A stretch of 64,000 bases of DNA from Patescibacteria group bacterium (lineage in GTDB: Bacteria; Patescibacteriota; Saccharimonadia; UBA4664; SCTI01). Below the pieces are notes generated by a model that worked only from the letters and a program-made list of their open reading frames with translations, made no database searches and was not told the DNA's origin. Each line of letters begins with the position of its first letter. Positions within the stretch are counted from its first letter, which is position 1. Shown here one piece after another: positions 47,129 to 54,100 of this stretch. The DNA lies in assembly GCA_004297735.1 (NCBI GenBank), contig SCTI01000001.1, forward strand, positions 190,435 through 254,434, given 5' to 3'. The position numbers were made by a program, and so were the translations under genes.

Positions 47129-48581
47129 ACCCTCCTTTAAATGGTGCCCTAGTCGCAAACTGGCAGTCGCCGGTTTAGCCGCTATAATTATTTTCTTTAT
47201 ATTTAACGTTTATTTAATGTTCACCAATCCTTACGGATGGGGGAGCATAGTACAGCAGCCCTACACCACCAAGGTTGAAAATGGGCAGATAACCTTTCAT
47301 CAAAACTTTACTATAAAAGTTTACGGCGGTCCCGTTGCCGATCTGCTTGGTTACTACAAATCTGGCTTACTTATCGTTCAAAACAGCCTGTTTGGCAGCC
47401 AGCCGGTTCCGGGTAGCTCGGCGGAGGAGATTACCAGCAGCATCCACTGGCTCCGCTTTGACCCAAGCAAGCCCTATCTGATCTCCGGTGACCAGTTCAG
47501 CGTCCTGTATGTCCGTAACCTCGGCGTGTTTTACAATCAACTACTTAACCCCAACATTGCGCTTAGTCAAGACGACTGGCAAAACAAGCAGCGCGTCTAC
47601 CTCCAGTCGGTCCTGTATGGTATTGATGGCTTGAGCGCGGCGCGCACGCCCAAAACCACCGTGGTACCGATTGGGCCCAGATCGGCGGCCCTAACCCAAG
47701 TGCACCCTGGCAGTTACGGCTCCGATAGCGTCTACGGCCTGCTTTACGGCCTAGACCAGCTCCAAAATGAAAAAACTAGCGCAGACGGGAAATATCACCA
47801 ACAGACTCGAGGCGCCGCCGAGCAAATCATACGAGAACGCCAGCCGCAGCTTCAACAAATAGTTAACGACTACTTAAATACGGTGCAAGATCCGCAAACC
47901 GGACTGGTAAAAAACAATCTGAAGCTGGCTAGCGCTCGCGACGGAGTAACCCGTAGCAGCAGCTTTTATGACAATGTGGTGATGTGGAAGACACTTGAAC
48001 TAGCCAATAAACTTGATATTCGTACCACTAATACTCAAGAGCTCACCAGCCTGCATCAACGCATTCTGAACACGTATTGGAGCCAGCAAACCGGCTGTTT
48101 TATTGATTCAATCGACAACCGCTTGAGCTACAGCTCCGACTGGCTGATAGCGCTTCCAATCGAGTTTCTGCTGCCAACCCAGGATAAAGACAGGCTCCAA
48201 AGCTGCGTCAGCTACATTCGCAAACATAAACTGGCTGAACCCTTCCCAATAAAATACAACAACGAGAGCAAACCCGAAGGGCCTTGGGCGGTGCGTACCT
48301 TTGTGCCGAACTACGGCGGAAATGCTATCTGGAGCTATTGGGGCGCCGAGTACATCACCCTGCTGGCTAACCTCAATAAAACCACTAACGATCCAAGCTA
48401 TCGCCAGGAAGCTGAACGCCACATTAACACCTATCACCAAAAAATGGTTGAATACCACGGCTTCCCAGAAACTTTTGATGCAAACGGTAACTTTTTACAA
48501 AACGCGGTTTATAAAAGCATCCGTTCCACCGGCTGGGTGGTGCAGCTAGAGTACGCTGAGTGGCTGTTGAGCCAACCCTAA
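47112..48581 (+). CDS. Hypothetical membrane-anchored protein (possibly six-hairpin glycosidase-like)
   Basis: 489 aa. N-terminal TM. No firm motif. C-terminal region with NAIWSYWG is weakly reminiscent of (alpha/alpha)6 glycosidases. Confidence 0.4.
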   Translation: MSQGRKPSFKWCPSRKLAVAGLAAIIIFFIFNVYLMFTNPYGWGSIVQQPYTTKVENGQITFHQNFTIKVYGGPVADLLGYYKSGLLIVQNSLFGSQPVPGSSAEEITSSIHWLRFDPSKPYLISGDQFSVLYVRNLGVFYNQLLNPNIALSQDDWQNKQRVYLQSVLYGIDGLSAARTPKTTVVPIGPRSAALTQVHPGSYGSDSVYGLLYGLDQLQNEKTSADGKYHQQTRGAAEQIIRERQPQLQQIVNDYLNTVQDPQTGLVKNNLKLASARDGVTRSSSFYDNVVMWKTLELANKLDIRTTNTQELTSLHQRILNTYWSQQTGCFIDSIDNRLSYSSDWLIALPIEFLLPTQDKDRLQSCVSYIRKHKLAEPFPIKYNNESKPEGPWAVRTFVPNYGGNAIWSYWGAEYITLLANLNKTTNDPSYRQEAERHINTYHQKMVEYHGFPETFDANGNFLQNAVYKSIRSTGWVVQLEYAEWLLSQP

Positions 48582-48589
48582 ACGTGCAG

Positions 48590-48628
48590 ACGCCCCGCTA
48601 GCTACATGCCGGCGGGGCGCTTTTATTC
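48590..48628. terminator. Bidirectional hairpin terminator, copy 1 of an identical 39-nt repeat
   Basis: ACGCCCCGCTAGCTACATGCCGGCGGGGCGCTTTTATTC: 8-bp GC stem CGCCCCGC/GCGGGGCG, then TTTTATT. An identical copy lies at 50766-50804. Confidence 0.65.
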
Positions 48629-48636
48629 GATCGTAT

Positions 48637-49206
48637 TCAGCTACTGATGACGTCTCCGTCCCCATCGAGGCCCATCTCGACGAGGATTTTGTCCAGGTCG
48701 CCCTCGATCAGCACCGACTCGCGATAGTACGCAAGGAGCTCGGCGCCGCACCGCTCGACCTCTTCCTTGAGAATGACGCCAATCGCCTGCGGGAGGTAGT
48801 CGTTCTTGGGATCCTTGAACAGCCGGAGCAGCTGATCTCGCTCGAGGGCGCCGATTTCGTGCTGCGGCTCGTCCTCCGTTCCGTGATCGAGCCAGGCCAG
48901 CCAGCGGGCCGGGTACTTTGAGGAATCGAGAACCAACAGGATCGAGCCTCTGGCGCTTTCCCCTGGCTGAAGCAACGGTACCCAGGATTGGGCACCACAG
49001 AGCGGAACCACCATCAAGTCTTGAAACCTCGGCTCCTTGATGAACGGCTCGCTGCACGAACCATCGGATTCATCGGTGTATGCCTTCAGCGGTTGCCCGC
49101 CGTGCTCCTTCAAAAATGGGAGCGCTCTCTCTACGACTCGCTCGAGAGCGATCAGATGGAGCTCGGCCTGCTGGTGGGTGTAAGGATCGGTCATGGTAAG
49201 CCTCAC
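48637..49206 (-). CDS. Hypothetical protein co-oriented immediately downstream of the RT gene (candidate retron accessory/effector)
   Basis: 189 aa, about 62% GC, acidic C-terminus (DGDGDVISS). No recognised domain. 100-nt gap to the RT stop. Lies between the RT and the repeat-1 terminator. Confidence 0.45.
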   Translation of the reverse strand: MRLTMTDPYTHQQAELHLIALERVVERALPFLKEHGGQPLKAYTDESDGSCSEPFIKEPRFQDLMVVPLCGAQSWVPLLQPGESARGSILLVLDSSKYPARWLAWLDHGTEDEPQHEIGALERDQLLRLFKDPKNDYLPQAIGVILKEEVERCGAELLAYYRESVLIEGDLDKILVEMGLDGDGDVISS

Positions 49207-49277
49207 TCAGTTGTACTGTCAAAAAGACTGTGTGATTTATACCATATATAAAAGCATATTCAAATAATGGCTGCTTC

Positions 49278-49310
49278 CCGGTTTTGGTCAGATCCGGAAA
49301 CTGATACTAC
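49278..49310. repeat. 33-nt element CCGGTTTTGGTCAGATCCGG(A/T)AACTGATA(C/G)T, copy 1 of 3
   Basis: Also at 52104-52136 and 53467-53499. Each copy sits 0-6 nt 3' of the stop codon of a minus-strand island gene. Confidence 0.7.
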
Positions 49311-50296
49311 CCTCGGAAGAGGCGCTGTAGCCACTCCTCCATGGGGCTGAGCGGAACTTTGGGCCGAGTAATCGGCTTGACGTAGGTGTACTTCCGCCAA
49401 ACCAGCGCCGCCTGACGATCAAACGGAAAGCCGCCAAGGGCTAGGTGCTCACGCAGAGCGCCCATACGGCCCTCTACCACGCCGGGTTCAATTGCCTTGC
49501 CCACGCGATTACTCTTGCCGTTAACCAAGCAATACATGCTGCCCTCTAGGCCCTGCAGCCACTTGCGCGGCAGGTAGATGGCAAAGGCACGATTGATGTC
49601 ATCGCTAGCTTCACCGGCGCTTGGACCGGCACCCAACCTTAGACCGGTGATCATGACCGGGCGACGAGCCACGTCGTAGTAGCCAGTCTTCTTGTAGTTG
49701 AGTCGGAAGCCACTGCGCTTAATGACAGCTCGAATTGCCTCGCGCTTACGACGACCAATCGGCTCCCAGCTCGAAAACACCAGATCGTCGATATAGCGCG
49801 TATAGGTCAGGCTCCAGCGCTCGGCTAGCTCAATCAACGCCTCGTCAAGCTTACGAGCCGCAACCTGGTTGAACAGATCGGTGGCTGCCGGCGTACCGGT
49901 CATTAGCCCTCGGCCACGAGGAGTGGCCAGGTAGCGACGAACGAAATCCTCCATGCCTACCTGATCTACCCAAAGCTCTGACTTTACTTCAGCCAGAACC
50001 GGATACAGCCACTCGGGGCGAACCGACGGGTAGGCGTTGTACAGATCCAACTTGTAAACGTAGTGGTTACCCCAATGCTGCATAGCGCAACGAACGGCTG
50101 AGCCACCACGTACACCACCAAAGTTATGTGATGGGATGCCAAGCTGTAAGCGTGTTTCGCGGATAACCTGGGCATGCACCTCGCGCATGGCTGCATTGGG
50201 CACAAACACCTCGCGCCGTTTACCGCCATTGCGACCGTTGATGAATCGGCGCTCCGTTGCAGGAGGCGCCGTAATGCTACGGGTCTCCTTAGACAT
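49307..50296 (-). CDS. Reverse transcriptase, retron-type (small stand-alone RT)
   Basis: 329 aa. RT motifs: SHNFGGVRGGSAVRCAMQH (retron-like HxF..GRS...NA..H block), motif A YKLDLYNAYPSV, motif C YIDDLVF (encoded 49784-49795), and PVMITGLRLG corresponding to the retron VTG motif. No maturase/En domains. RBS GGAGG 7 nt upstream. Confidence 0.75.
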   Translation of the reverse strand: MSKETRSITAPPATERRFINGRNGGKRREVFVPNAAMREVHAQVIRETRLQLGIPSHNFGGVRGGSAVRCAMQHWGNHYVYKLDLYNAYPSVRPEWLYPVLAEVKSELWVDQVGMEDFVRRYLATPRGRGLMTGTPAATDLFNQVAARKLDEALIELAERWSLTYTRYIDDLVFSSWEPIGRRKREAIRAVIKRSGFRLNYKKTGYYDVARRPVMITGLRLGAGPSAGEASDDINRAFAIYLPRKWLQGLEGSMYCLVNGKSNRVGKAIEPGVVEGRMGALREHLALGGFPFDRQAALVWRKYTYVKPITRPKVPLSPMEEWLQRLFRG

Positions 50297-50765
50297 TGCG
50301 CCTCCAATTGTAAAAGTATTATCGTGACGACCCGGCGGGGTCTGGAGAAAGACGACAACATGGGTTTACCGGGCCGTGCGCCCTCGCTGCGGCGCGCCCG
50401 AGTGGCGGTCACCGGCCTGCGGAGCAGACCAGCTGCTCTTCTGCCACGAGCGCTCACGCGCCGCGGATGAAGAACCGGCCACCTCATCGTGCCGCAGCCT
50501 GCGCTGGAGCTCCCGCGTACGAGAGCCTATAGACCACCTACACGCTACGGAATGGCTACCGCGTTGGCGGAGTGGCTACCGCTCGTTTGCGTCAGTTGGC
50601 CCAACCTCGTCGTTTGAACGACCAGGCACTGGTGTTAGGACGGTTGTCGACCTTACATCTCCAGACCCCACCTATAGGGTGTCACTACTTACCGAACACC
50701 TATCGGTAGCGTCATGATAGCAGGCCTGTGCATATGGAGGCAATATTAGTTACCTTAAAACTTCA
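50297..50765 (-). ncRNA. Candidate retron msr/msd non-coding RNA region (GC-rich 5' leader of the RT gene)
   Basis: 469 nt with no plausible ORF (all frames Arg-rich nonsense). About 64% GC. Multiple local palindromes (GGAGCTCC, GAGCAGctggtCTGCTC, CACCCTATAGGTGG). Confidence 0.3.
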
Positions 50766-50804
50766 ACGCCCCGCTAGCTACATGCCGGCGGGGCGCTTTT
50801 ATTC
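50766..50804. terminator. Bidirectional hairpin terminator, copy 2 of the identical 39-nt repeat
   Basis: Identical to 48590-48628. Separates gene 50799..51476 from the RT unit. Confidence 0.65.
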
Positions 50805-51476
50805 AACTGAGCCCCACATGTGGAGCTTGACCGAATTCTGAGGACGCTTCAAGATCTGCTCACGCCAAACGAAGTCAGGGTGGAGCTGGCCTTTCTGCCT
50901 AAGAACCAGACAGACCGTATCTACCAGCTCGTTCCAGCGGATGTTGTAGTTCTCGAGGTAGGGGAGAAGCCGCGCGATCGTCACCCGCGGCGGCGCCTCT
51001 AGCGTGCGCTTGTAAAAGCGGCAAATTTCGTACTCGTCGCTGCCGGCTTTAAGCGCGTGCTCCAGTGTGATCTGAAGTCGCTGGTTACGGCGGCACACAT
51101 CAAGGAGCTGCTCCAGACTGAGCGGGAAGTATGCCATTTCGGCCAAGGCATACTCGCACCAATCGCGCACAAACTGGCGACGGGCCACCCCAAAAGCAGT
51201 GACCTGCGTTTTGGCCTCATCTAGGTGCTCGCTAATCTGCGCTAGATTGAGCTGCACCAGGCCGGGCTTAGAGCCCAGCTTGCGGTAGAAGAGATGGCTG
51301 TCGGGCCGGCTACTAAAGTAGCGGGCGGCGGCGTTAAACGCACCTTTAGCCAGCTTAGTCCGGCCGTTTGCGACGTTAAACCTTACCGCGTCATCCATGG
51401 TGGCCCAAAGCTCCACGCTACTACTAGTGCCGCCAAGCGTCGAGAAGCTGGTAAAGCCAGAAGGAGTGCTGTGCAT
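50799..51476 (-). CDS. Hypothetical protein (island gene)
   Basis: 225-aa ORF, about 60% GC, no recognised domain. Confidence 0.4.
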   Translation of the reverse strand: MHSTPSGFTSFSTLGGTSSSVELWATMDDAVRFNVANGRTKLAKGAFNAAARYFSSRPDSHLFYRKLGSKPGLVQLNLAQISEHLDEAKTQVTAFGVARRQFVRDWCEYALAEMAYFPLSLEQLLDVCRRNQRLQITLEHALKAGSDEYEICRFYKRTLEAPPRVTIARLLPYLENYNIRWNELVDTVCLVLRQKGQLHPDFVWREQILKRPQNSVKLHMWGSVE

Positions 51477-52103
51477 AGATTATTCCTCAATCTCGCTGTC
51501 AAAGAAGAAGGACGGCCGAAGCCGTCCCGTGTACACCTCCATACGGAGATGGCGCCGGCCTAAGGGTGCTCTCGGACACCCAGAGGCCTACTCAGTGTTT
51601 CTTTATCCCCCTGAGTTACCGGGGTTTATTTTCGGCTTACCGAGAGTTACCGTCCAGCAACACTACAATTAGATGCAGGAGGTGGATACCCCTAACAAAC
51701 TGACGCTTCCACACTACCCCTAGGAGGTAGCGCGTCAGGCTGACTGGTACTACCATCCACCTGTGAGGTCAGCTCTCCAACTTGCCGCTGATTTACGTCG
51801 CAGCGACTATCAGGTGCAGAGGTGGCTCGAGGCGTGGTCTCGTTAACCTTTCGAGCTTGGCTTATGCCTTGCCCTTGGCACGAGCAACATCGCTGTTGCC
51901 ACTGTTTGAGATACTATCATTTTATGTGTTTTTGTCAACATGCCAAAGAGTCTCGAGTGAGTCGATTTATTACCGATTATTCAAAGCACAAAATTGCCGA
52001 GCTATTTTCGCAGGCGGTGGATTTGCATAAAACTTAAACCAGTTTTAGTTGTGCAGTTTCGTCCTTTTGGACTCGTCAGAACACATACACATGTATTGAC
52101 TGC

Positions 52104-52136
52104 TCCGGTTTTGGTCAGATCCGGTAACTGATAGTG
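52104..52136. repeat. 33-nt element, copy 2
   Basis: CCGGTTTTGGTCAGATCCGGTAACTGATAGT. Lies 3 nt 3' of the stop of 52139..53386. Confidence 0.7.
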
Positions 52137-52138
52137 GT

Positions 52139-53386
52139 TTAGGCCCTAAGTGCCCCCGTGGCGCGATAGGCCTCGAGCCACCTCTCGTTATAGAACCAGT
52201 CAGGCACATATGCACTCTCGATTTCGCCCTCGCTAGAGAGCACCTGGTGGGCCCAGACGCACCGACCCTCGCTGCCGCGAACGCGACTTCCAAAGCCGCT
52301 GTTTACCCGTAGACCTGCCTTTTCGGCAACCACTTCGGGATACCGATAGGGACCGTCAAAGCCGCCGCTGACACTCAGGTAGAGGTCGTCCAGTTCGCAC
52401 ACAGCCAGGACCAATCGCTGGATCTCAGCAATCCCCTCAAGACTCAAGCAACGAGTCCGCGAGGCATGAACCGTGATCGAGGAGCCAGCGGCGTAAAACG
52501 GATGGTTGACGTTTGTCCAGCCCCTCAGAGACTGGTCGTCTTCATCGTCCCGCAACGACCCTTCTGGCGGCAGAACCGCCTGAACAGCCATACCGCGAAT
52601 CAGAGCGGAGGTGTGCCCATTGATCAGCCCAACTGAGATCTTATCTCGGCTCATGACCGGGTGATACCCGGGCACGATACTGAGATCAAGGCCACCACCT
52701 GGCTTAAACAGGCCGTGCCACAGCCTGAATGACCGCTCTGAGTCACCGATCTCAAAGGTGACCAGCTGCAACCAGTCGTAACTCCATCGCCCACTAAGCG
52801 AGTGGGTGATGCCGATCTCTTGGATCTTGGGATGGTCAAGTGCTACAAGTAGTGCCGCTTCAAGGCTATTGACCGCAGCGAACACCACTTCGATTTGAAG
52901 CTGTTCCAGGGCCTCAGCCAGCATTCCAACCGACATGCAGTTGAAGACCGGATTCGGAACGTATGTATTGAGTGTTCGCAGCGACAGCCAGTGCGAAGAG
53001 CGACCAATCCGAGACCGGTGTAGCGGGCCACATGTGTGGTAACGGCTCACCCAGTAGCGCTGGGTATGACTAGCGATCCGGCGCAACGCCCACAGGTGCT
53101 GCTGTCCGGTTGTGCCCGGAAGCATTATCACTGCGCTTACCTGGTAGAGGTGGTCGAGGAGCACCCGTGCAACAGGTGCGCCATCGCGATAAAGCTTGAC
53201 CTCAAGCGAGCGACAAAAGTAGCGCCACTCCAGATCATCCTCGGCGTACTCGAAAGCAAGCTGAGGGTTCTTCACTCCCATATAGGGCAGCGATGGGTTA
53301 CGACCGCGGCTGCGTTGCCACATGCCGTGCAGCAGGACGTACTCGGCGGAACCTGGTTCGTGTCCTTTCAAGATACTCTTTTTCAC
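52139..53386 (-). CDS. Hypothetical protein (island gene), C-terminal half weakly resembles the PNP/MTA-nucleosidase phosphorylase fold
   Basis: 415 aa. Segment VFAAVNSLEAALLVALDHPKIQEIGITHSLSG loosely resembles the glycine-rich nucleoside-phosphorylase family-1 core. The assignment is tentative. Confidence 0.4.
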   Translation of the reverse strand: MKKSILKGHEPGSAEYVLLHGMWQRSRGRNPSLPYMGVKNPQLAFEYAEDDLEWRYFCRSLEVKLYRDGAPVARVLLDHLYQVSAVIMLPGTTGQQHLWALRRIASHTQRYWVSRYHTCGPLHRSRIGRSSHWLSLRTLNTYVPNPVFNCMSVGMLAEALEQLQIEVVFAAVNSLEAALLVALDHPKIQEIGITHSLSGRWSYDWLQLVTFEIGDSERSFRLWHGLFKPGGGLDLSIVPGYHPVMSRDKISVGLINGHTSALIRGMAVQAVLPPEGSLRDDEDDQSLRGWTNVNHPFYAAGSSITVHASRTRCLSLEGIAEIQRLVLAVCELDDLYLSVSGGFDGPYRYPEVVAEKAGLRVNSGFGSRVRGSEGRCVWAHQVLSSEGEIESAYVPDWFYNERWLEAYRATGALRA

Positions 53387-53466
53387 TTCTAATCCTTATG
53401 ACGAGATGGACAAAGAATGACTTATTATACAATTTATTATAATTAAATTCAAATAATTCAGCTTCA

Positions 53467-53499
53467 CCGGTTTTGGTCAGATCCGGTAACTGATAGTGC
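53467..53499. repeat. 33-nt element, copy 3
   Basis: CCGGTTTTGGTCAGATCCGGTAACTGATAGT. Lies 5 nt 3' of the stop of 53504..53917. Confidence 0.7.
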
Positions 53500-53503
53500 G
53501 GGC

Positions 53504-54025: not shown

Positions 54026-54100
54026 TGGTAGTCCCACGGGGACTCGAACCCCGGTTACTGGAATGAGAATCCAGCGTCCTAACCACTAGACGATGGGACC
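54026..54100 (-). tRNA. tRNA-Glu (anticodon CUC)
   Basis: Reverse complement GGTCCCA-TC-GTC TAGTGGTTAG GAC-G-CTGGA TTCTCAT TCCAG-TAAC-CGGGG TTCGAGT CCCCG-TGGGACT-A-CCA. Anticodon CUC. Confidence 0.8.

What the first reader, a model, noticed from the sequence alone, without database searches (positions are those of the whole stretch)
48590..50804. Retron-like RT unit (GC-rich leader, RT, unknown 189-aa ORF) bracketed by two identical 39-nt hairpin terminators
The 329-aa ORF at 49307-50296 (minus strand) carries reverse-transcriptase motifs A (YKLDLYNAYPSV) and C (YIDDLVF). It also has two blocks that, from my memory of retron RTs, are diagnostic: an HxF-G-RS...NA..H block (SHNFGGVRGGSAVRCAMQH) before motif A, and a VTG-like thumb motif (PVMITGLRLG). 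It is too small for a group II intron RT and has no maturase or endonuclease domain. It is preceded by a 469-nt, 64% GC, ORF-free leader that could encode msr/msd. It is followed after 100 nt by a co-oriented 189-aa ORF with no recognisable domain, which is the expected position of a retron effector. The whole unit is delimited by two 100% identical copies of a 39-nt terminator hairpin (48590-48628 and 50766-50804). This looks like a discrete transcription unit acquired as a block. I cannot match the putative effector to any described retron effector class, so it may be a new retron type.
Basis: partly seen in the sequence, partly recalled or inferred. Interest (0 to 1): 0.88.

Follow-up and report, generated by a model that had tools for sequence, protein, structure and literature searches.

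The report
Effector-less retron cassette in a CPR bacterium
This is a genuine retron-type reverse transcriptase with its own structured template RNA in a tiny-genome (Patescibacteria) bacterium, from an unclassified clade that always travels without a partner toxin gene, so the neighbouring 189-aa gene is probably an unrelated orphan and not a new effector.

Summary
The sequence features are real: a 329-aa RT (49307-50296, minus strand), a structured upstream leader, a 185/189-aa ORF 100 nt downstream, and two identical 39-nt hairpins.

The RT is retron-type by HMMs, PDB sequence search and predicted fold. It fits none of the 13 described retron types.

The leader holds a ~340-nt RNA (50672-50334) closed by an a1/a2 helix. 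That helix is strongly supported by compensatory changes in four homologous loci. Many more distant relatives have the same layout with unrelated sequences.

The "new effector" idea fails. The 185-aa ORF is a complete orphan with its own promoter and a different GC3. Relatives of the RT are flanked by unrelated housekeeping genes, with no conserved partner.

The RT and leader sit at a syntenic site (tRNA-Glu … RT … PLD) in related Saccharimonadia genomes. The 39-nt repeats occur only here, each at the 3' end of a lineage-specific orphan ORF. They do not delimit a mobile RT unit.

All named clade members are CPR bacteria.

[quoted passage not shown] This kind was noted but never characterised (Mestre 2020). 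Here it forms a new CPR-restricted clade. Moderately interesting.

The parts
50714..50743 (-). Promoter of the retron transcript: TTGCCT, 18-nt spacer, TATCAT with an extended -10 TG
   Evidence: The promoter scan finds it. The extended -10 box TGCTAnnATGA is invariant in the window, L001, L003 and L005.
50334..50672 (-). Retron-like ncRNA core (msr/msd candidate), 339 nt, 65% GC. The 5' and 3' parts are conserved and the middle is variable and GC-rich.
   Evidence: Fold z-score -6.0. The conservation pattern is seen in alignments A1 and A3. RNAalifold and the pair counts support the helices.
50658..50672 (-). a1 arm (GGTGGGGTCTGGAGA). The helix continues through AAGG (50651-50654) and CGACAAC (50643-50649).
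   Evidence: Inverted repeat I5. Helices 1 and 2 are 97-100% paired, and 11 pairs show changes on both sides.
50334..50359 (-). a2 arm (TCTCCAGACCCCGCC, 50334-50348) plus the 3' strand of the inner helix (GTTGTCG, 50353-50359). It ends 37 nt before the RT start codon.
50605..50626 (-). Conserved msr-like hairpin (CCUGGUCGU-UCAA-ACGACGAGG). It is a candidate RT recognition element.
   Evidence: Helix 3: the loop is UCAA or UCAU, with one compensatory C-G to U-A change.
50641..50641 (-). Invariant G two nt 3' of the closing helix. It is a candidate priming (branching) G. This is inference only.
   Evidence: It is invariant column G100 in A3 and its coordinate comes. No experimental or computational test of priming was possible.
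49307..50296 (-). Retron-type reverse transcriptase, 329 aa: YIDD catalytic motif, region X CAMQH, region Y ITG.
   Evidence: Pfam. PADLOC best hits are all retron RT models, 1e-24. NCBIfam retron_St85_RT 1e-24. PDB Ec86 RT 2e-20. The top 16 Foldseek hits are retron RTs.
49273..49309 (-). Copy A of a 37-nt element (TATCAGTTtCCGGATCTGACCAAAACCGG) that overlaps the RT stop codon. It is followed by a promoter-like TTGAAT-16-TATAAA for the 185-aa ORF. It separates the RT from the orphan ORF and is not part of the retron.
   Evidence: Three copies in the window. Copy C precedes the TTGAAT-17-TATAAT promoter of the 415-aa orphan ORF.
48637..49194 (-). Orphan 185-aa ORF (189 aa from the GTG at 49206). 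It is probably a real gene but not a conserved retron component.
   Evidence: Only a self hit among 5.8e9 proteins. No Pfam, PADLOC or NCBIfam match. Codon score 0.36 in frame against -0.3 and -0.7 out of frame; GC3 0.76 against 0.64 for the RT and 0.56 for the genome. AF2 pLDDT 47.
48590..48628 (+). 39-nt hairpin, copy 1. It is placed and oriented as the terminator of the convergent 489-aa gene and lies 8 nt after the 185-aa ORF.
50766..50804 (+). 39-nt hairpin, copy 2. It contains the stop codon of the lineage-specific 225-aa ORF and lies immediately upstream of the retron promoter.

Best explanation
The locus is a stand-alone retron cassette made of a promoter, a ~340-nt msr/msd-type ncRNA and an RT. 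It belongs to an unclassified retron RT clade that, as far as named members show, is restricted to CPR/Patescibacteria.

Proposed mechanism:
1. Transcription starts at the conserved extended -10 promoter (50743-50714) and gives one RNA carrying the ncRNA and the RT mRNA. The promoter and its conservation are shown; the single transcript is inferred.
2. The ncRNA folds so that its ends pair in a 26-bp interrupted a1/a2 helix. This is shown by covariation.
3. The RT binds the conserved 5' (msr-like) part, primes from the 2'-OH of a G next to that helix (candidate G50641), and copies the variable GC-rich central part into msDNA. This step is inferred from retron biology.
4. No effector is encoded in cis. 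The cassette is vertically maintained at a syntenic site among housekeeping genes. Its RT-msDNA complex therefore acts either with an unlinked partner or in a domesticated, possibly non-defence role.

The 185-aa ORF and the two 39-nt hairpins belong to lineage-specific orphan-gene modules that flank the cassette in this genome only.
For: RT class:
- All of the best PADLOC hits are retron RT models, 1.7e-24 and weaker.
- NCBIfam gives retron_St85_RT 1e-24, against Drt3a 1.6e-4, Drt2 5e-3 and group II 1e-2.
- The PDB profile search gives Ec86 2e-20 and Ec83 8e-18, against Drt2 6e-3.
- The AF2 model (pLDDT 78.5) has retron RTs as its top 16 Foldseek hits over the full length.
- The retron hallmarks of Mestre 2020 (PMC7736814) are present: region X xAxxH (CAMQH, H74 invariant) and region Y ITG (G218 invariant).

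ncRNA:
- Fold z-scores are -5.7 and -6.0.
- The three helices are 96.7% paired, with 12 pairs changed on both sides. 0 of 500 shuffles reach this, and slid controls give 0-3 such pairs.
- 16 of 49 clade loci have their best long-range inverted repeat ending 23-45 nt before the RT start, with unrelated sequences. None of the type VI loci does.

No effector:
- Neighbour clustering finds no conserved partner in L001-L057.
- The flanking genes are SmpB, DnaB, MiaA, RF, RecG, a sigma factor, glycosyltransferases and similar. The Pfam-negative neighbours have no PADLOC hits.
- In L002 a convergent ABC ATPase gene follows the RT after 95 nt.

Residency:
- The order tRNA-Glu … RT … PLD is shared with L006. 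L001 shares the HK/tRNA-Glu flank at 88% aa identity.
- The clade is absent from the viral contigs scanned.

Host range:
- All six named members are CPR bacteria.
Against: - msDNA synthesis, the priming G and the 2'-5' branch are untested.
- The ncRNA (~340 nt, branched centre) is longer and more complex than classical msr/msd.
- Rfam's msr family gives no match.
- The RT matches retron models only at superfamily level (E about 1e-24, against 1e-70 for true type members). It could therefore be a sister lineage with different chemistry.
- Region X has C instead of N in this protein.
- An effector encoded elsewhere in the genome cannot be excluded.
- Only about a third of clade loci gave a clear a1/a2 signal with my simple ungapped search.
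Confidence: 0.72

Rival explanations
1. One reading: a tripartite retron in which the co-oriented 185/189-aa ORF is a novel effector. The whole RT-ncRNA-effector unit was acquired as a block bounded by the two 39-nt hairpins.
For: - The ORF is co-oriented, 100-112 nt downstream, and looks coding.
- It matches no known family, as a novel effector might.
- The exact 39-nt direct repeats bracket RT plus ORF and are non-random.
Against: - The ORF has no homolog at all, and none lies next to any of about 57 related RTs.
- It is separated from the RT by a 37-nt element and a promoter module. The same module precedes the unrelated 415-aa orphan ORF.
- Its GC3 is 0.76 against 0.64 for the RT.
- Clade relatives carry no effector.
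- The RT and leader are syntenic in relatives that lack the repeats.
- Homology to L001 resumes exactly at the inner edge of hairpin copy 2.
Confidence: 0.08
2. A DRT-like system. The RT and ncRNA alone form the functional unit, as in DRT2 or DRT9. The cDNA product itself (a concatemer, a homopolymer or a templated gene) is the effector, made without a branched msDNA.
For: - The two-component architecture (RT plus upstream structured ncRNA, no protein partner) matches DRT2 and DRT9.
- DRT2 and DRT9 appear among the structural hits, though lower down.
Against: - RT sequence and fold are much closer to retron RTs: Drt2 6e-3 against Ec86 2e-20, and NCBIfam Drt2 5e-3.
- The termini-pairing a1/a2 helix is the retron layout.
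- The central template region varies in sequence and length.
- Long antisense ORFs across the RNA in the window, L003 and L005 are in different frames and are absent in L001/L002, so there is no conserved neo-like ORF.
Confidence: 0.12
3. A decaying or non-functional RT relic whose GC-rich leader is merely a structured 5' UTR.
For: There is no partner gene. CPR genomes are reduced. The locus is flanked by orphan genes.
Against: - The ORF is intact with all catalytic motifs, and 22 invariant columns hold across 11 sequences down to 23% identity.
- The family has 323 clusters at E<=1e-30.
- RNA helices are maintained by compensatory substitutions.
- The promoter is conserved.
Confidence: 0.05

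Closest known systems
Stand-alone (msr-msd)-RT cassettes in a branch of retron RT clade 2 and in clade 11 (Actinobacteria), noted by Mestre et al. 2020 (PMC7736814)
   Same: A retron-type RT with an adjacent ncRNA and no associated effector gene. It appears vertically inherited, and a domesticated non-defence role has been suggested.
   Different: - The host phylum is CPR, not Gammaproteobacteria or Actinobacteria.
- The RT does not match PADLOC's RT_outgroup or RT_other models better than any other retron model.
- The ncRNA is long, about 340 nt.
- I could not compare directly with clade 2 or clade 11 sequences.
Classified tripartite retrons. The nearest by HMM are types III-A, VI and II-A; the nearest solved structures are Ec86 (Eco1), Ec83 and Eco7.
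   Same: The RT fold and motifs (YxDD, xAxxH, [VI]TG). The ncRNA lies upstream of the RT and is closed by a1/a2 inverted repeats. The msr-like part is conserved and the msd-like part is variable.
   Different: - There is no effector protein.
- The HMM match is only at superfamily level: 1e-24 against about 1e-70 for true type VI members found in the same scan.
- The ncRNA is larger and branched.
- The cassette lies among housekeeping genes, not in a defence island.
DRT2 (UG2) and DRT9 (UG28) reverse-transcriptase defence systems
   Same: Two components only: an RT and an upstream structured ncRNA that serves as template.
   Different: A different RT lineage (UG/Abi class) with only marginal similarity. 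No rolling-circle template with a conserved ORF is evident.

Membership tests
Retron (RT + msr/msd ncRNA) | The RT belongs to the retron/retron-like lineage and not to group II, DGR or UG/Abi. | tested here: met
   Retron models and structures are the best hits in PADLOC, NCBIfam, the PDB sequence search and Foldseek. Other RT classes are 10 or more orders of magnitude weaker by sequence. No full phylogeny was made.
Retron (RT + msr/msd ncRNA) | [quoted passage not shown] | tested here: met
   The window RT has CAMQH at residues 70-74. H74 is invariant in A2 and A5. N is replaced by C here, but relatives have NAAAH, NVLRH and NVQAH.
Retron (RT + msr/msd ncRNA) | [quoted passage not shown] | tested here: met
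   ITG lies at residues 216-218. T217 and G218 are invariant among the close homologs, and G218 is invariant in all 11 sequences.
Retron (RT + msr/msd ncRNA) | A contiguous ncRNA whose ends pair through a1/a2 inverted repeats, with a conserved msr part and a variable msd part. | tested here: met
   The a1/a2 and inner helices are 97-100% paired with 11 compensatory pairs. 0 of 500 shuffles reach this. The layout recurs in 16 of 49 clade loci.
Retron (RT + msr/msd ncRNA) | Production of msDNA primed from the 2'-OH of a branching G (2'-5' linkage). | not testable with these tools
   Only a candidate invariant G (50641) next to the closing helix can be named.
Retron (RT + msr/msd ncRNA) | A cognate effector gene or fused effector domain (tripartite system, types I-XIII). 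| tested here: not met
   No conserved neighbour. The flanking genes are housekeeping genes. No PADLOC effector hits. The RT has no extra domain: 329 aa, with the fold covered by retron RTs.
One of the 13 described retron types | A type-level match of the RT to a type-specific model. | tested here: not met
   The best hit is 1.7e-24, and about 10 types lie within three orders of magnitude of it. Genuine type VI RTs from the same scan score 1e-70 to 6e-74.
Group II intron RT/maturase | An RT with maturase (X) and D/En domains inside a group II intron RNA. | tested here: not met
   TIGR04416 scores 1e-2 against a cutoff of 300 bits. There is no Rfam intron match in the window. The protein has only 329 aa.
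Diversity-generating retroelement | A template/variable repeat pair (TR/VR) near a DGR-type RT. | tested here: not met
   No long imperfect direct repeats lie around the RT. No DGR family appears among the HMM hits.
DRT2-like (UG2) RT + ncRNA | A UG/Abi-lineage RT, and a template whose concatenated cDNA carries a conserved open reading frame. | tested here: not met
   Drt2 scores 5e-3 and 6e-3. Antisense ORFs across the ncRNA are not conserved in frame or in presence.
Intrinsic terminator (the 39-nt hairpin) | A GC-rich stem-loop followed directly by a U-run on the transcribed strand. | tested here: inconclusive
   The stem is stable at -24 kcal/mol on both strands. The T-run (CTTTTATTC) is on the + strand only. 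The consensus scan did not call it on either strand.

The most novel reading that the evidence does not exclude
A large retron clade specific to the Candidate Phyla Radiation has dispensed with effector proteins altogether. It is inherited vertically at a fixed chromosomal site next to housekeeping genes. If so, it is a domesticated retron whose RT-msDNA complex performs a cellular, non-abortive-infection function, or defends by a mechanism intrinsic to the msDNA, in ultra-small symbiotic bacteria.
Probability: 0.3. Interest if true: 0.75.

Novelty: new variant of a known kind. Interest (0 to 1): 0.55.

Why it matters
Retrons are currently understood as three-part toxin/antitoxin-like phage defence systems. 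What a retron does without an effector is an open question, raised but not answered by Mestre et al. 2020.

This locus and its roughly 300 sequence clusters define an unclassified, effector-less clade. As far as named members go, it is confined to CPR bacteria. The reviews I could search describe the RT content of those bacteria as about 80% DGRs, and I found no description of CPR retrons.

The compact RT (about 300-330 aa) and its well-defined ncRNA make a concrete test case for effector-independent retron function. They are also a possible new source of RT-DNA-producing parts.

For the finding as written, the analysis removes the claim of a novel effector class.

Tried and rejected
- Rfam at relaxed threshold on 48500-51000 gave no msr or other credible family.
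- The 185-aa ORF had no hit in Pfam, PADLOC, NCBIfam or the 5.8e9-protein homology search. Its AF2 single-sequence model had pLDDT 47, so no fold search was made.
- The 185-aa and 225-aa ORFs, each followed by the same hairpin, are not paralogs (BLASTP E 3.5).
- A DRT2-like conserved ORF in the cDNA was rejected. Antisense ORFs of 93-115 aa exist in the window, L003 and L005, but in different frames, and none exists in L001/L002.
- Direct repeats bracketing the RT unit in relatives were sought and none found.
- Viral-contig scans for the RT clade, the 39-mer, the 37-nt element and the ncRNA-X motif gave no hits.
- An 18-nt complementarity between the ncRNA (50565-50582) and the RT 3' end (49324-49341) was judged chance level, because several similar pairs occur in 4.5 kb and the segment is deleted in L001.
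- Host taxonomy from cluster names was sparse: only 6 members are named, and all are CPR.
- I did not build a covariance model. The conserved parts are split by a variable centre of about 200 nt, and the distant relatives are not alignable.
Full report
OBSERVATION

The ORF list, repeat finder and sequence read-out confirm the anatomy at the stated coordinates.
- A 329-aa ORF lies at 49307-50296 on the minus strand.
- A co-oriented ORF lies at 48637-49206. It is 189 aa from a GTG. The ATG at 49194 with a GAGG Shine-Dalgarno gives the 185 aa that NCBI annotates.
- A 469-nt gap lies upstream of the RT.
- Two perfectly identical 39-nt copies lie at 48590-48628 and 50766-50804. They are the only two in the window, and none is expected by chance.
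- All four quoted peptide motifs are present.

Some details need correcting.
- The leader is 59% GC overall and 65% only in its core.
- It is not literally ORF-free.
- The hairpin (-24 kcal/mol) has its T-run on the plus strand only. It is oriented as the terminator of the convergent 489-aa gene, and the scan did not call it a terminator on either strand.

WHAT THE RT IS

- Pfam sees RVT_1.
- All 25 listed PADLOC hits are retron RT models, led by RT_III-A at 1.7e-24 and RT_VI at 5e-24.
- NCBIfam gives retron_St85_RT at 1e-24, against Drt3a 1.6e-4, Drt2 5e-3 and group II 1e-2.
- A profile search of PDB sequences gives retron Ec86 RT at 2e-20 and Ec83 at 8e-18, against Drt2 at 6e-3.
- An AlphaFold model (pLDDT 78.5) has retron RTs as its 16 best Foldseek hits, aligned over the whole length. 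Group II, DRT2, AbiK and DRT9 RTs follow.
- The two hallmarks that Mestre et al. 2020 (PMC7736814) give for retron RTs are present. Region X reads CAMQH (H74 invariant, N replaced by C; relatives have NAAAH, NVLRH and so on). Region Y reads ITG (G218 invariant).

The RT belongs to no described type. About ten type models score within three orders of magnitude of each other. Genuine type VI RTs recovered in the same metagenome scan hit RT_VI at about 1e-70.

An exhaustive HMMER search finds 323 clusters (50% identity) at E<=1e-30, mostly 295-340 aa and aligned end to end. This is therefore a sizeable, unclassified retron-like clade.

Every member that carries an organism name is from the Candidate Phyla Radiation: Patescibacteria (two, including this window), Saccharimonadales, Parcubacteria (two) and Berkelbacteria.

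THE LEADER RNA

The minus strand of the leader folds far better than shuffles (z = -5.7; core z = -6.0). A 15-nt inverted repeat (50672-50658 with 50348-50334) extends through a small internal loop into a helix of about 26 bp that closes a 339-nt RNA. This helix ends 37 nt before the RT start codon.

The three closest RT homologs (51-52% and 43% identity; loci L001/L002, L003, L005/L006) all have a noncoding leader of 370-460 nt. Alignment shows the following:
- an invariant extended -10 box (TGCTAnnATGA), which the promoter scan also finds in the window (TTGCCT-18-TATCAT);
- a conserved 5' part with a hairpin bearing a UCAA or UCAU loop;
- a central GC-rich part that varies in sequence and length;
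- a conserved 3' part.

RNAalifold recovers the closing helix, an inner 7-bp helix and the hairpin. Counting pairs for just these three helices gives the following:
- 96.7% of cells are paired;
- 12 of 31 pairs changed on both sides;
- no shuffle out of 500 does as well;
- controls with the 3' partner slid by 1-3 columns give 35-50% pairing and 0-3 compensatory pairs.

In more distant relatives (29-38% RT identity) the sequences cannot be aligned. Even so, 16 of 49 loci have their best long-range inverted repeat with the 3' arm ending 23-45 nt before the RT start and the 5' arm 245-376 nt upstream. None of the type VI loci does.

Folding these RNAs gives a1/a2-closed branched structures of 220-345 nt. 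Several carry a shared CCUCAGCG motif before a2.

This is the retron layout: a conserved msr-like part, a variable msd-like part, and termini paired by a1/a2. An invariant G two nucleotides after the closing helix (50641) is a candidate priming G. That is inference only.

THE SUPPOSED EFFECTOR

The 185-aa ORF looks coding by this genome's codon usage: 0.36 per codon in frame, against -0.67 and -0.31 out of frame. Against an effector role:
- It has no homolog other than itself among 5.8 billion proteins.
- It has no family match and no confident fold.
- Its GC3 is 0.76, against 0.64 for the RT and 0.56 for the genome.
- A 37-nt element separates it from the RT. The element occurs three times in the window, each time just after a stop codon. 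At copies A and C it is followed by a TTGAAT-type promoter and an orphan ORF (and the sequence).
- Nothing like it accompanies the RT elsewhere. Clustering of all neighbouring ORFs across 57 related loci finds no conserved partner.
- In relatives, the genes just downstream or upstream are unrelated housekeeping genes: sugar transferase, DnaB, FemAB, MiaA, SmpB, a sigma factor, a release factor, RecG, a nucleotidyl transferase and others. Several others are convergent genes, such as the ABC ATPase 95 nt after the RT in L002.
- The Pfam-negative neighbours match no PADLOC defence model.

THE HAIRPINS AND THE 'BLOCK'

The cassette is not a recent block insertion.
- L001 shares the histidine-kinase/tRNA-Glu flank with the window (80% nt, 88% aa).
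- L006, from Saccharimonadales, shares both tRNA-Glu upstream and the PLD-family gene downstream.
- The order tRNA-Glu … RT … PLD is therefore ancestral.
- None of the relatives has direct repeats around the RT.
- The RT clade was not found in viral contigs.

In L001/L002 the RT leader directly follows the terminator of a conserved noncoding RNA of about 400 nt. In the window the same RNA (promoter 51938-51911, terminator 51528-51509) is separated from the leader by the orphan 225-aa ORF plus hairpin copy 2. Similarity to L001 resumes exactly at the inner edge of that hairpin.

Each hairpin copy therefore marks the 3' end of a lineage-specific orphan ORF. The 225-aa ORF's TAA lies inside copy 2, and the 185-aa ORF ends 8 nt before copy 1. 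My reading is that two orphan-gene modules carrying the same terminator-like hairpin came to flank a resident retron cassette. This is inferred and not proven, and the origin of the exact duplication remains open.

MECHANISM AND RIVALS

Most likely (0.72): a stand-alone (msr-msd)-RT retron cassette that makes msDNA and works without a cis-encoded effector.

Mestre et al. 2020 already noted stand-alone cassettes in part of clade 2 and in the Actinobacteria-restricted clade 11. They suggested that vertically inherited retrons may be domesticated. The kind therefore has precedent, but this clade, its CPR restriction and its long ncRNA are not described in the literature I could search.

Rivals:
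- DRT-like chemistry without branching (0.12). The two-component architecture fits, but the RT lineage, the a1/a2 layout and the lack of a conserved cDNA ORF argue against it.
- A decaying relic (0.05). Conserved catalytic residues, compensatory RNA evolution and a conserved promoter contradict it.

VERDICT

- The retron call is supported.
- The new-effector and mobile-block interpretations are not supported.
- Novelty: a new variant (an unclassified, CPR-restricted, effector-less clade) of a known kind.
- Interest is moderate at 0.55. It gives a concrete handle on the open question of what effector-less retrons do, but function and msDNA synthesis remain untested.

Noticed in passing
window 52051-52105 (-): A candidate type III hammerhead ribozyme (RF00008, 43.2 bits against a gathering score of 48.5, E 1e-8). 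It has a canonical GUC cleavage site and CUGAnGA and GAAA cores. It lies directly after copy B of the 37-nt element and downstream of the 415-aa orphan ORF.
   Followed up: partly
window 49273-49309, 52100-52136, 53462-53498 (-): A 37-nt element (TATCAGTTACCGGATCTGACCAAAACCGG, CCGG-N12-CCGG) occurs in three copies, each 0-12 nt after a minus-strand stop codon. Copies A and C are followed by 'ATTATTTGAAT' promoters and orphan ORFs of 185 and 415 aa. Copy B is followed by the hammerhead. It is absent from all 85 related loci and from viral contigs. It may be an operator or a gene-junction module.
   Followed up: partly
window ~51500-51905 (-); L001 ~5120-5560: A noncoding RNA of about 400 nt with its own strong promoter (TTGACA-16-TAGTAT, conserved in L001) and a terminator (51528-51509). 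Fold z-scores are -3.4 and -4.7. Its 3' hairpin is conserved (GGGUGUCCGAGAGCACCC..GGCCGGCGC, 39 nt at 90-92% identity to L001/L002). It matches no Rfam family. In L001 it lies directly upstream of the RT leader.
   Followed up: partly
window 48600-53500: The stretch between tRNA-Glu (54026-54100) and the convergent 489-aa gene carries three orphan ORFs of 415, 225 and 185 aa. None has a family hit, and their GC3 is elevated (0.65-0.76 against 0.56 for the genome). All seven promoter-like sites in the stretch are on the minus strand. The content differs completely from the syntenic interval in L001 and L006, so this is a variable region next to a tRNA gene.
   Followed up: partly
L058-L085 (metagenome loci): These more distant RT hits are genuine type VI retron RTs (PADLOC RT_VI about 1e-70). 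They have two conserved small co-oriented upstream genes of about 73 and 97 aa, and the second overlaps the RT start by about 19 nt.
   Followed up: partly
L007, L008, L010, L020, L028, L055 (25-45 nt 5' of the a2 arm): A shared CCUCAGCG motif near the 3' end of the candidate ncRNAs in mid-distance clade members. The window's subgroup has GCCCGGUA or CCCGGCA at the equivalent place. It may be an RT recognition or initiation element.
   Followed up: no
window 50548-50582 and 49324-49341: Inside the ncRNA there are two 15-nt direct repeats 20 nt apart (GCGGTAGCCAyTCCG). There is also an 18-nt stretch 89% complementary to the 3' end of the RT coding sequence. The segment is absent in L001, so this is probably chance.
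   Followed up: partly
window 50376-50717 (+), L003 5662-6009 (-), L005 1636-1917 (-): Long ORFs of 93-115 aa run antisense across the ncRNA in three of the four close loci. They are not in a conserved frame and are absent in L001/L002, so they are most likely a by-product of high GC.
   Followed up: yes
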